The translations under genes were made by a program, and so were the position numbers. A DNA stretch of 64,000 nt. It comes from a virus (Duplodnaviria; Heunggongvirae; Uroviricota; Caudoviricetes). Numbering within the stretch: the first letter of the stretch is position 1; each line of letters opens with the position of its first letter. A model generated the notes under the pieces. The model made no database searches. It was not told the origin of the DNA and saw only the letters and a list, made by a program, of their open reading frames with translations. The stretch lies in the IMG/VR virus record IMGVR_UViG_638275541_000001; one strand, written 5' to 3'. Below are positions 4,378-4,460 of the stretch, one piece after another.

Positions 4378-4460
4378 ATGGGACGATGTTAAGACTCTAA
4401 GGCATGAGCAACGGCTTCCAACACCGTTTCAAAGGGGTTCAACTCCTCCGTCCCATGCCA
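4378..4460 (+). tRNA. tRNA-like gene, probable tRNA-Trp (anticodon CCA) with expanded D region
   Basis: perfect acceptor ATGGGAC/GTCCCAT, T-arm GGGGTTCAACTCCTCC, GCCA; anticodon hairpin reads either as 9-nt loop CTTCCAACA or 7-nt loop TTCCAAC closed by a C-A mismatch; D region ~6 nt too long. Confidence 0.4.

What the first reader, a model, noticed from the sequence alone, without database searches (positions are those of the whole stretch)
4378..4460. Probable tRNA-Trp with expanded D region and ambiguous 7- or 9-nt anticodon loop
Perfect 7-bp acceptor, good T-arm and CCA, but the anticodon hairpin has either a 9-nt loop (CTTCCAACA) or a 7-nt loop TTCCAAC (anticodon CCA) closed by a C-A mismatch, and the D region is about 6 nt too long. 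It is the only Trp candidate in the cluster, so it is likely functional despite the odd geometry. Enlarged anticodon loops are known from frameshift-suppressor tRNAs, which is speculative here.
Basis: partly seen in the sequence, partly recalled or inferred. Interest (0 to 1): 0.5.

Follow-up and report, generated by a model that had tools for sequence, protein, structure and literature searches.

The report
Overlooked non-canonical phage tryptophan tRNA
The flagged 83 bases are almost certainly the phage's missing tryptophan tRNA, built on an unusual "8/4" scaffold with an extra 7-base connector that standard tRNA finders reject; the same unannotated design recurs in hundreds of Felix O1-, phi92- and rV5-type phage genomes.

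Summary
Window 4378-4460 (+) lies in the Felix O1 tRNA cluster. Its anticodon is CCA, its discriminator G73, and CCA is encoded. ARAGORN (standard settings) and the Rfam tRNA model reject it.

Eighteen distinct Ounavirinae/metagenome homologues give an 8-bp acceptor stem (G8-C65; A49.C65 never pairs), an invariant 7-nt linker AUGUUAA, a short D hairpin with GG, a covarying 5-bp anticodon stem (26:44-30:40) and a 4-bp T stem.

Sixteen further sequences from other viral contigs share the 8/4-plus-linker design. Over 29 distinct sequences, 96% of cells pair (42-52% in slid controls), 17 of 21 pairs have compensatory changes, and 8:65 covaries. Relatives occur in 234 Ounavirinae, 61 phi92-type and 44 rV5-related/PVP-SE1-type records; among the rows listed only PVP-SE1 names it tRNA-Trp.

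It is the only Trp candidate in 36 clusters. In wV8-type phages another tRNA-Trp replaces exactly these 83 nt.

Best explanation: a functional tRNA-Trp reading UGG. Expression, charging and decoding are untested. Frameshift suppression finds no support; UGA reading is open but left no trace in stop-codon usage. It is a new variant of a known kind.

The parts
4378..4460 (+). Whole gene: non-canonical (8/4) tRNA-Trp(CCA), 83 nt including the encoded CCA
   Evidence: Sequence; model R1 scores it 110 bits; homologues in 234 phage records; covariation.
4378..4385 (+). Acceptor stem 5' strand, 8 nt (AUGGGACG); A1 pairs with U72 and G8 with C65
   Evidence: Pairs 1:72, 2:71 and 3:70 covary within Ounavirinae. 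Across the family all 8 pairs show double changes, and 8:65 is G-C 16, U-A 9, U.G 4.
4386..4392 (+). Extra single-stranded linker AUGUUAA between the acceptor and D stems (a canonical tRNA has 2 nt here)
   Evidence: Invariant in 18 distinct Ounavirinae/metagenome sequences. Related A-R-N-Y-U-U-A-A linkers occur in non-Ounavirinae members. It could pair with the 3' end of the D loop (AUGU / GYRU), but only wobble changes support that, so it is unresolved.
4393..4409 (+). D arm: G10 (4393), bulged A (4394), stem CUC (4395-4397) / GAG (4406-4408), loop UAAGGCAU with GG (4398-4405), C25 (4409)
   Evidence: 11:24, 12:23 and 13:22 are paired in 18/18 sequences; 12:23 is U-A 12, A-U 5, G-C 1. The rival Sec-like stem GUU/AGC is broken in 6/18.
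4410..4428 (+). Anticodon arm: stem AACGG (4410-4414) / CCGUU (4424-4428), i.e. 26:44 to 30:40; 9-nt loop CUUCCAACA (4415-4423), i.e. C31.A39 plus the 7-nt loop UUCCAAC
   Evidence: All five pairs are kept in 18/18 sequences and four of them show two to four pair types; 31.39 is C.A in 16 and C.C in 2, never paired.
4418..4420 (+). Anticodon CCA (reads UGG, Trp)
   Evidence: Invariant in every homologue, flanked by invariant U33 and A37.
4429..4433 (+). Variable region UCAAA; its last A (canonical position 49) faces C65 but never pairs with it
   Evidence: Invariant in Ounavirinae; the variable region ends in AA in nearly all family members.
4434..4448 (+). T arm: 4-bp stem GGGG / CCUC and 7-nt loop UUCAACU
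   Evidence: 50:64 covaries (G-C / U-A); the loop is UUCRAnY. The stem is 100% paired across the family.
4449..4460 (+). Acceptor stem 3' strand CGUCCCAU (4449-4456), discriminator G73 (4457), encoded CCA (4458-4460)
   Evidence: Sequence. G73 is invariant in Ounavirinae. G73, the CCA anticodon and the 1:72 pair are the bacterial TrpRS identity set (PMC9976931, PMC12135181).

Best explanation
Window 4378-4460 encodes the phage's own tryptophan tRNA (anticodon CCA).

Proposed working:
- It is transcribed with the neighbouring tRNAs of the cluster.
- It is trimmed to an 83-nt RNA with A1 at the 5' end and the encoded CCA at the 3' end.
- Host TrpRS charges it; the enzyme reads the CCA anticodon, G73 and the top of the acceptor helix.
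- It then decodes UGG, giving Felix O1 a tRNA for all 20 amino acids.

Its body is not a standard 7/5 cloverleaf:
- The acceptor helix has 8 bp and the T stem 4 bp (12 stacked pairs, as in a normal tRNA).
- A conserved 7-nt single strand (AUGUUAA) replaces the usual 2-nt connector.
- The D hairpin is small but keeps the GG needed to meet the T loop.
- The anticodon stem is shifted one step towards the core (26:44 pairs, 31.39 does not).

It belongs to a family of (8/4) tRNA-Trp genes spread among large lytic phages of enterobacteria.

Shown here: the conserved structure, the identity signature, the genomic role as sole Trp gene, and the family. Inferred, not shown: transcription, processing, charging, decoding, and why this scaffold is kept.
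For: (1) Structure under selection.
- RNAalifold on 12 distinct sequences returns the 8-bp acceptor stem, 3-bp D stem, 5-bp anticodon stem with 9-nt loop and 4-bp T stem.
- 99.6% of cells are paired against <=52% in slid controls; 8 pairs have double changes against 0.
- Segment counts on 18 sequences agree.
- Family-wide alignment A7 (29 distinct sequences): 96.4% paired against 42-52%; 17/21 pairs with double changes; covariation score 0.80 against 0.06-0.15.

(2) tRNA hallmarks are invariant: U33, C34-C35-A36, A37, GG in the D loop, UUCRA in the T loop, G73, encoded CCA.

(3) The Trp identity set is met: G73, CCA anticodon, A1-U72 (G.U or G-C in some), G5-C68, as defined in PMC9976931. In the EcTrpRS co-crystal the enzyme recognises the anticodon and acceptor arm, and that paper never mentions the D arm (PMC12135181).

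(4) Genomic role.
- It lies in the tRNA cluster, on the same strand, 13 nt upstream of tRNA-Ser(UGA).
- The 25 called tRNAs cover 19 amino acids, all but Trp.
- In 36 family loci, some with 18-32 tRNAs, no other Trp tRNA is called.

(5) Functional replacement.
- 23 Ounavirinae records carry a different tRNA-Trp(CCA) that ARAGORN accepts.
- In VpaE1_ev78 it replaces exactly these 83 nt.
- The complete wV8 genome has that allele and no copy of the 83-nt element; the window has no copy of the other allele.

(6) Purifying selection over distance: homologues down to about 76% identity in Mooglevirus, Suspvirus, Yersinia and Pectobacterium phages keep every helix. Relatives occur in phi92-type and rV5-related/PVP-SE1-type phages, and the two PVP-SE1 records label theirs tRNA-Trp.
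Against: - There is no direct evidence of expression, processing, aminoacylation or decoding, and no transcriptome or tRNA-seq study of these phages was found.
- General tRNA models reject it.
- U8, A14 and A21, which build the canonical core, are absent or displaced, so an L shape is assumed, not demonstrated.
- Irregular 8/4 tRNAs with an extra loop from soil metatranscriptomes could not be charged by the E. coli enzymes tested, and some irregular tRNAs were charged but not used in translation (PMC5389517).
- Position 2:71 is U-A, whereas G2-C71 is a determinant in B. subtilis (PMC9976931).
- The most divergent sequence (L118) has two apparent mismatches in its acceptor stem.
- Alignment A7 was fitted to the model's structure, which biases pair counts towards it.
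Confidence: 0.8

Rival explanations
1. It is a tRNA-Trp(CCA) whose altered 'hinge' (extra nucleotides between 8 and 10, a bulged A next to G10, Watson-Crick 26:44, unpaired 31.39) lets it read the near-cognate stop codon UGA as well as UGG. It would act as a natural Hirsh-type or 'unpinned-stem' suppressor, producing read-through products or perturbing host termination.
For: [quoted passage not shown]
- A9C and G24A do the same.
- The proposed mechanism involves residues 9-12, 23-26, 44 and 45 (PMC13092985).
- In standard numbering the Felix element has four Watson-Crick pairs (27:43-30:40) and an unpaired 31.39, and its differences from a normal tRNA lie exactly in that hinge.
- The related phiEa21-4 tRNA-Trp has only three pairs, with U27.C43 and C31.A39 unpaired.
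Against: - The tested effect is for stems unpinned at the top (27:43). The bottom-unpinned class was explicitly not studied.
- Here 26:44 pairs, so the helix still has 5 bp.
- Many family members have a normal 31:39 pair.
- UGA ends 22% of ORFs of 100 aa or more in the window, and UGA stops are not followed by back-up stops more often than other stops (p = 0.49-0.70). The only weak signal (p = 0.01) is in wV8, which carries the allele with a normal stem.
- No conserved in-frame UGA extension was seen.
Confidence: 0.1
2. It is a tRNA-like RNA that is not used in translation. For example, it could be a decoy or antidote for a host defence that cleaves or senses tRNA-Trp, or a ligand that titrates TrpRS or another tRNA-binding protein. 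The invariant linker would then be a protein-binding site.
For: - The 7-nt linker is invariant although the stems around it change, as expected for a specific contact.
- Phage tRNAs that counter tRNA-targeting defences are an established theme (my knowledge, not tested here).
- Some irregular 8/4 tRNAs are charged but not used in translation, or not charged at all (PMC5389517).
Against: - The anticodon, U33, A37, G73, CCA, the T loop and the 12-bp acceptor/T stack are all kept, which is more than a decoy for a single enzyme would need.
- It is the only Trp candidate in clusters that otherwise cover 19 amino acids.
- It is exchanged one-for-one with a more ordinary tRNA-Trp.
- No tRNA-Trp-specific defence in enterobacteria is known to me.
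Confidence: 0.07
3. It is a +1 frameshift suppressor that reads four bases using its enlarged 9-nt anticodon loop.
For: 31.39 never pairs in Ounavirinae, so formally the loop has 9 nt. Enlarged loops are known from frameshift suppressors (my knowledge).
Against: - Known natural suppressors usually carry an extra base within the loop next to the anticodon (my knowledge). Here the extra two bases are a mismatched closing pair, and U33 and A37 stay in register for a triplet.
- The commonest allele has the exact canonical tRNA-Trp loop CUCCAAA.
- Bottom-unpinned tRNA-Trp genes occur in 267 bacterial genes (PMC13092985). The same C31.A39 arm occurs in at least 120 viral loci, many with otherwise ordinary cloverleaves.
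- Many 8/4 family members have a paired 31:39.
Confidence: 0.02
4. It is a decayed tRNA pseudogene with an insertion in the D arm.
For: Standard tools reject it, and records never annotate it or lay 'hypothetical protein' ORFs over it.
Against: Compensatory changes keep every helix across genera and across unrelated phage groups. The linker and all tRNA hallmarks are invariant. A pseudogene would accumulate disruptive changes.
Confidence: 0.01

Closest known systems
(8/4) tRNAs: phage and bacterial (8/4) tRNA-Ser and tRNA-His, allo-tRNAs, selC* tRNA-Cys, minor (8/4) tRNA-Sec (Mukai et al. 2017, PMC5389517; review PMC7609411)
   Same: A 12-bp acceptor/T stack split 8+4 instead of 7+5. A D arm with a long stem and a tiny loop in most family members (5-6 bp, NGG loop). 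Found in phage tRNA clusters and missed or mis-scored by standard tools. The best, though insignificant, Rfam match is tRNA-Sec.
   Different: The identity is Trp (CCA, G73), and 'Trp' does not appear in that paper. There is no long variable arm (5 nt here). A 7-9-nt conserved connector with a UUAA core takes the place of about 2 nt. The hosts are enterobacterial phages (Felix O1, phi92, rV5-related/PVP-SE1 types), not marine or alpha-proteobacterial phages. In Felix O1 itself the D stem is only 3-4 bp with an 8-nt loop.
Irregular (8/4) 'E-loop' tRNAs with an extra loop between the acceptor and D stems (soil metatranscriptomes; PMC5389517, PMC7609411)
   Same: [quoted passage not shown]
   Different: Those come from acidobacterial polycistrons near toxin-antitoxin genes. 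The anticodon (GCU) and discriminator (U73) did not match a clear identity, and the E. coli enzymes tested did not charge them. The phage family has a coherent Trp identity set and sits in complete tRNA sets. Whether the two linkers are homologous could not be tested, because their sequences are not held here.
[quoted passage not shown] 2026, PMC13092985)
   Same: CCA anticodon. In standard numbering there are four Watson-Crick pairs, with 31.39 unpaired, which lengthens the loop by 2 nt.
   Different: That survey covered bacterial genomes only and never mentions phages. The bottom-unpinned class (267 genes) was set aside unstudied. Here 26:44 is a covarying Watson-Crick pair, so 5 bp are kept, and the tRNA body is 8/4 with a linker.
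Ordinary phage-encoded tRNA-Trp: the wV8-type allele and phiEa21-4 tRNA-Trp
   Same: Same anticodon, G73 and A1-U72, and the same genomic role. The wV8 allele occupies the same slot. phiEa21-4 shares the 15-nt core CGGCCUCCAAAACCG, including C31.A39.
   Different: Both of those are 7/5 cloverleaves accepted by ARAGORN (71 and 76 nt), have no linker, and have 3-4-bp D stems.

Membership tests
Canonical bacterial-type elongator tRNA (Rfam RF00005 / ARAGORN standard cloverleaf) | Scores above threshold with general tRNA models | tested here: not met
   No RF00005 hit at E<=10 on 8 kb or on 711 nt. ARAGORN default and -ps give nothing; only mitochondrial mode calls it.
Canonical bacterial-type elongator tRNA (Rfam RF00005 / ARAGORN standard cloverleaf) | 7-bp acceptor stem plus 5-bp T stem, and a 2-nt connector (U8, N9) | tested here: not met
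   A49.C65 never pairs, while G8-C65 always does. 8:65 covaries across the family. The connector is 7 nt.
Canonical bacterial-type elongator tRNA (Rfam RF00005 / ARAGORN standard cloverleaf) | 7-nt anticodon loop with U33 and a purine at 37; T loop UUCRANY; GG in the D loop; 3' CCA | tested here: met
   All are present and conserved. The loop counts as 7 nt only if the C31.A39 mismatch is treated as its closing pair.
tRNA-Trp as a bacterial TrpRS substrate | Anticodon C34 C35 A36 | tested here: met
   Invariant in all homologues. Determinant as given in PMC9976931 and PMC12135181.
tRNA-Trp as a bacterial TrpRS substrate | Discriminator G73 | tested here: met
   G at 4457, invariant in Ounavirinae and in the tails of family members.
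tRNA-Trp as a bacterial TrpRS substrate | Minor acceptor-stem elements A1-U72 and G5-C68 | tested here: met
   The window has A1-U72 and G5-C68. Across the family 1:72 is A-U 17, G.U 9, G-C 3.
tRNA-Trp as a bacterial TrpRS substrate | Actually aminoacylated with Trp and used at UGG | not testable with these tools
   Requires in vitro charging, acid-gel northern blots, or translation assays.
(8/4) tRNAs (Mukai et al. 2017) | 12-bp acceptor branch made of an 8-bp acceptor stem and a 4-bp T stem | tested here: met
   RNAalifold predicts it. 8:65 is G-C 16, U-A 9, U.G 4 and never unpaired, and the T stem is 100% paired. In the parse of 170 Trp-like genes, all 33 that came out 8/4 had the long D region.
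allo-tRNA / tRNA-Sec-like group | Long variable arm | tested here: not met
   The variable region is 5 nt (UCAAA) in the window and 5-6 nt across the family.
allo-tRNA / tRNA-Sec-like group | D arm with a long stem and a tetraloop | tested here: inconclusive
   Met in most non-Ounavirinae members (5-6 bp stem, 3-4-nt loop). Not met in the window element (3 bp plus G10-C25 with a bulge, 8-nt loop).
Bottom-unpinned 4-bp-anticodon-stem tRNA-Trp(CCA) (PMC13092985) | 31.39 not a standard pair, loop lengthened by 2 nt, anticodon CCA | tested here: met
   C.A in 16 and C.C in 2 of 18 distinct sequences. Not met by many non-Ounavirinae members of the 8/4 family.
Frameshift-suppressor tRNA | Extra nucleotide in the anticodon loop that gives a four-base anticodon | tested here: not met
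   The inner 7 nt are a standard YUCCAAM loop, and the two extra nucleotides are the mismatched 31.39 positions.

The most novel reading that the evidence does not exclude
The (8/4)-plus-linker tRNA-Trp family may be a dedicated phage device and not a neutral oddity. One version: its remodelled hinge lets a CCA anticodon read UGA as well as UGG, giving programmed read-through or interference with host termination. Another version: its remodelled core makes it invisible to a host nuclease or defence system that removes host tRNA-Trp, so the phage keeps translating UGG when the single-copy host tRNA-Trp is lost. The one-for-one exchange with a normal-fold allele carried on an HNH-like cassette would then reflect an arms race at this slot.
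Probability: 0.15. Interest if true: 0.8.

Novelty: new variant of a known kind. Interest (0 to 1): 0.6.

Why it matters
1. It corrects the record for a classic phage. Felix O1 and its relatives are described as encoding tRNAs for 19 amino acids, or as having no Trp tRNA (PMC3185647, PMC12482277). They most likely encode all 20.

2. A non-canonical tRNA body (8/4, with a long conserved connector) appears to be kept under selection in hundreds of sequenced phages of E. coli, Salmonella, Klebsiella and relatives. These are organisms in which charging, ribosome use and structure can be tested directly. [quoted passage not shown]

3. It exposes a systematic blind spot. ARAGORN missed 46% of viral Trp-like genes with the C31.A39 arm, against 6% of those with U31-A39. 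Studies of phage tRNA content and codon usage inherit that error.

4. It is a natural test case for the current question of whether changes in the tRNA-Trp hinge and anticodon stem alter UGA reading (PMC13092985).

5. A compact, unusually shaped tRNA accepted by a bacterial system could be useful as a scaffold for genetic-code engineering.

Tried and rejected
- **Standard detectors.** ARAGORN (default, -ps, -i) and Rfam (gathering-level and E<=10) find nothing at the site. At -ps80 ARAGORN makes spurious calls (Pyl, Pro with intron) that I disregarded.
- **Single-sequence thermodynamics.** z = -1.56, not informative.
- **Rival D-stem GUU/AGC** (suggested by the tRNA-Sec alignment). Broken in 6/18 sequences; rejected.
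- **Linker AUGU pairing with the 3' end of the D loop.** Compatible in 17-18 of 18 sequences, but only through wobble changes, and it would take up G19. Neither accepted nor excluded.
- **Relatives without the linker.** A pattern anchored on the 3' half found none in IMG/VR or metagenomes. The 91 matches without the linker contained no ARAGORN tRNA and look like chance.
- **Chance matches discarded.** L013 and L150, the single hit in 185,579 bacterial and archaeal genomes. The element was therefore not found in cellular genomes.
- **UGA read-through footprints.** Stop-codon usage, back-up stops and in-frame extensions gave no signal tied to this allele.
- **Expression data.** A literature search for Felixounavirus transcriptomes found nothing usable.
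- **Pfam on the ORF that travels with the alternative allele.** Only sub-threshold HNH hits (E about 0.008, below the cut-off), so calling it a homing cassette remains an inference.
- **MAFFT alignment A3** misplaced the D-stem gaps, so I parsed segments by script instead.
- **Model alignment A6** mixed ordinary tRNAs with family members and was replaced by A7.
- **C31.A39 as the family's defining trait.** Rejected: many 8/4 members pair 31:39, and many 7/5 viral Trp tRNAs carry C.A.
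Full report
**What the window is.** A 1.8-kb stretch around the finding is 100% identical to Salmonella phage FO1a (Felixounavirus felixO1) and 92-97% identical to many Felix O1-like phages. The window's tRNA coordinates differ by a constant 22,155 from Table 1 of the Felix O1 genome paper. I therefore infer that the window is Felix O1 positions 22,156-86,155 (PMC3185647). ARAGORN tRNAs at 1544-8025, all on the + strand, covering 19 amino acids, with Trp missing.

**The observation.** It is accurate.
- ATGGGAC (4378-4384) pairs with GTCCCAT (4450-4456), followed by G and CCA.
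- AACGG (4410-4414) and CCGTT (4424-4428) enclose CTTCCAACA. This reads as a 7-nt loop TTCCAAC with anticodon CCA (4418-4420), closed by a C.A mismatch.
- 26 nt separate acceptor position 7 from anticodon-stem position 27, so the anticodon starts at nucleotide 41 instead of 33-36.

Standard tools reject the element:
- ARAGORN finds nothing at default or relaxed thresholds.
- The Rfam tRNA model gives no hit at E<=10, even when given only 711 nt.
- The best Rfam match is tRNA-Sec at 16.9 bits, against a cut-off of 47.
- Only ARAGORN's mitochondrial mode calls it Trp(cca).
- The single-sequence fold is unremarkable (z = -1.56).

**It is conserved and structured.** The 83 nt occur in 234 phage records. 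In the 60 listed rows none annotates it as a tRNA; some lay a 'hypothetical protein' over it. Copies from Mooglevirus, Suspvirus, a Yersinia phage and Pectobacterium phages are 76-90% identical. Pattern scans of IMG/VR and metagenomes added further variants, including a divergent one (L118) that again sits just upstream of tRNA-Ser(UGA).

RNAalifold on 12 distinct sequences, with no structure imposed, returns an 8-bp acceptor stem, a 3-bp D stem, a 5-bp anticodon stem with a 9-nt loop and a 4-bp T stem. On that structure 99.6% of cells are paired (<=52% when the partners are slid) and 8 pairs carry compensatory double changes (0 in every slid control).

Segment-by-segment counts on 18 distinct sequences give:
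- D stem: 11:24, 12:23 and 13:22 are paired in 18/18. 12:23 is U-A 12, A-U 5, G-C 1.
- Anticodon stem: 26:44 to 30:40 are paired in 18/18, and four of the five pairs show two to four pair types.
- 31.39 is never a standard pair (C.A 16, C.C 2).
- A49.C65 never pairs, while G8-C65 always does.
- The linker AUGUUAA, the variable region UCAAA, U33, CCA, A37, G73 and CCA are invariant.

This rules out a pseudogene.

**Evidence that it is the Trp tRNA.**
- *Identity.* Bacterial TrpRS relies on G73, the CCA anticodon and the first acceptor pair, with A1-U72 and G5-C68 as minor elements (PMC9976931). The element has all of them. [quoted passage not shown] An odd D region therefore need not block charging; this is an inference.
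- *Role.* It is the only Trp candidate in the cluster.
- *Replacement.* 23 Ounavirinae records (wV8, phiSUSP1, Sf19 and others) carry a different 71-nt tRNA-Trp(CCA) that ARAGORN accepts. In VpaE1_ev78 this allele, together with a 134-aa ORF that has sub-threshold HNH similarity, replaces exactly the 83 nt. The flanks are identical on both sides.
- *Mutual exclusion.* The complete wV8 genome has that allele and no trace of the 83-nt element. The window has no copy of the alternative allele. The two alleles are interleaved among Felixounavirus, Suspvirus and Mooglevirus, and the alternative allele is 98.6-100% identical in all of them. That pattern suggests recent spread as a cassette (inference).
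- *Outgroup.* Erwinia phage phiEa21-4 has a conventional 76-nt tRNA-Trp in another slot. It shares the 15-nt core CGGCCUCCAAAACCG, including C31.A39.

**The wider family.** I scanned IMG/VR for the Trp anticodon arm with C31.A39 (GGC CUCCAAA ACC) and with U31-A39 (GGU...). ARAGORN failed on 52/114 of the C31 genes and on 7/121 of the U31 genes.

Most C31 genes parse as 7/5 cloverleaves, many with short D regions of 14-16 nt. Five distinct sequences from non-Ounavirinae contigs parsed as 8/4 with a 24-27-nt D region; none of the 104 U31 genes did. A further scan and a general parse of 170 distinct Trp-like genes gave 33 with 8/4 geometry, and all 33 had the long D region. My parser favours 7/5 when the two tie.

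The common plan is:
- an 8-bp acceptor stem ending in U8 or G8;
- a linker of the type A-R-N-Y-U-U-A-A;
- a D hairpin, usually 5-6 bp with a 3-4-nt NGG loop;
- the anticodon arm with CUCCAAA;
- a 5-nt variable region ending in AA;
- a T stem GGGG/CCUC, then G73 and CCA.

A covariance model built from the Ounavirinae alignment scores these members at 33-60 bits and most ordinary tRNAs below that, at 38 bits or less. On the family-only alignment (29 distinct sequences):
- 96.4% of cells are paired (42-52% slid);
- 17 of 21 pairs have double changes (7-12 slid);
- 162 cells have double changes (12-27 slid);
- the covariation score is 0.80 (0.06-0.15 slid);
- the eighth acceptor pair is G-C 16, U-A 9, U.G 4, and never unpaired.

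The caveat is that this alignment is fitted to the model's structure. The Ounavirinae result and my own segment parse do not depend on that alignment.

In GenBank phages, relatives occur in 61 phi92-type (Justusliebigvirus) records, none annotated in the listed rows. They also occur in 44 rV5-related records (Klebsiella BIS47, Proteus Mydo, Salmonella PVP-SE1 and others), where only the two PVP-SE1 records say tRNA-Trp. In 36 family loci, some holding 18-32 tRNAs, ARAGORN calls Trp only once, and that call is the 8/4 gene itself. The element's pattern was not found in 185,579 bacterial and archaeal genomes, apart from one chance match.

**What the 9-nt loop means.** In Ounavirinae the 31.39 mismatch is fixed and 26:44 is a covarying Watson-Crick pair, so the 5-bp helix is shifted one step towards the core. 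The mismatch does not define the 8/4 family, since many members have U-A, A-U or G-C at 31:39. It is also common in otherwise ordinary viral Trp tRNAs.

Fakih et al. 2026 report that 8.9% of bacterial tRNA-Trp(CCA) genes have a 4-bp anticodon stem. 267 of them are 'unpinned at the very bottom, lengthening the AL by 2 nt', and that class was left unstudied. The paper never mentions phages (PMC13092985). U33 and A37 remain in register for a triplet anticodon, so the frameshift idea has no support.

**The UGA question.** The same paper shows that unpinning the top of the stem (C27A) raises UGA read-through about 2.5-fold in E. coli. It ties this, together with A9C and G24A, to a hinge formed by residues 9-12, 23-26, 44 and 45. 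The phage element differs from a normal tRNA exactly there, so extra UGA reading cannot be excluded.

I looked for a genomic footprint and found none tied to this allele. UGA ends 15 of 68 long ORFs in the window, and its back-up stops are no closer than for UAA or UAG (p = 0.49-0.70). The only weak signal (p = 0.01) is in wV8, which has the normal-stem allele.

**Comparison with known systems.** 8/4 acceptor/T geometry is known from minor tRNA-Sec species, selC* tRNA-Cys, allo-tRNAs, and (8/4) tRNA-Ser and tRNA-His of marine and alpha-proteobacterial phages. Irregular 8/4 tRNAs with an extra loop between the acceptor and D stems were seen in soil metatranscriptomes but could not be charged by the E. 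coli enzymes tested (PMC5389517; PMC7609411). 'Trp' does not occur in Mukai et al.

The phage Trp family shares the 8/4 split and, in most members, the long-stem, tiny-loop D arm. It lacks the long variable arm, has a coherent Trp identity, and has a conserved 7-9-nt connector. It is therefore not an allo-tRNA. I rate it as a new variant of a known kind.

**Verdict.** The best explanation is a functional, non-canonical (8/4) tRNA-Trp decoding UGG (confidence about 0.8). The steps from gene to function (expression, processing, charging, decoding) are inferred, not shown. Why this scaffold is maintained is unknown. Altered decoding of UGA and evasion of host tRNA-directed defences are the interesting possibilities that remain open.

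Noticed in passing
window 3796-3877 (+): A second non-canonical tRNA-like gene, missed by ARAGORN and scoring 31.7 bits with the Rfam tRNA model. It has a 7-bp acceptor stem, no D arm (7 nt, UAUCUCA, in its place), a hairpin with an invariant CUUCUAA loop (anticodon UCU, which would read AGA), a small extra hairpin in the variable region, a 5-bp T arm and A73-CCA. It is 82-100% identical in 261 phage records from unrelated groups: Felixounavirus, a T5-like Klebsiella phage, phi92- and rV5-type phages, the 348-kb 121Q/PBECO4 jumbo phages and a Vibrio phage. Six sequences give 9 covarying pairs. CUC/GAG becomes CAC/GUG in the Vibrio phage, which hints at a long-range helix enclosing the anticodon hairpin. 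Records call it tRNA-OTHER, tRNA-Leu(taa) or nothing. The Felix O1 paper noted that a tRNA for the frequent AGA codon was expected but not found.
   Followed up: partly
L003 2361-2850 (VpaE1_ev78); the same in wV8, L147 27798-28287: The alternative tRNA-Trp allele is itself atypical: 71 nt, a 3-bp D stem and the anticodon at position 30. Several records label it tRNA-OTHER or pseudo. It travels with a 134-aa ORF that has sub-threshold HNH-endonuclease similarity and is homologous to Felix O1 gp46 (window 5158-5571). Together they replace exactly the 83-nt element, which looks like homing-type cassette exchange at a tRNA slot.
   Followed up: partly
IMG/VR loci L151-L264 (C31.A39 set) compared with L265-L384 (U31-A39 set): Viral Trp(CCA) genes whose anticodon arm is closed by C31.A39 are common (at least 120 loci). 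ARAGORN misses them far more often (52/114) than U31-A39 genes (7/121). Many have very short D regions (14-16 nt between positions 7 and 27). Phage tRNA-Trp cores seem unusually variable in general.
   Followed up: partly
L149 24578-24653 (Erwinia phage phiEa21-4): The annotated, ARAGORN-accepted tRNA-Trp has only three Watson-Crick pairs in its anticodon stem (U27.C43 and C31.A39 are both unpaired), and its 3' end is encoded as UCA instead of CCA.
   Followed up: no
window 2857-3354, 3848-4240 and 5158-5571: The tRNA cluster is interrupted by small HNH or HNH-like endonuclease ORFs (FO1a gp43, gp44, gp46) that are present or absent among relatives. For example, Gly and Thr are adjacent in SME50 but 430 nt apart here. 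This suggests frequent endonuclease-driven reshuffling of the cluster.
   Followed up: no
window 4474-4563 and 2781-2857: The published Felix O1 tRNA table (22 tRNAs, tRNAscan-SE 2010) also lacks tRNA-Ser(UGA) and the second tRNA-Met, both of which ARAGORN and Rfam call here. The FO1a GenBank record shows no tRNA features in the 4.8-kb stretch fetched.
   Followed up: no
L008 399-484 and L009 399-484 (Yersinia P778, Pectobacterium Arno18): [quoted passage not shown] The metagenomic L118 copy has two apparent acceptor mismatches.
   Followed up: no
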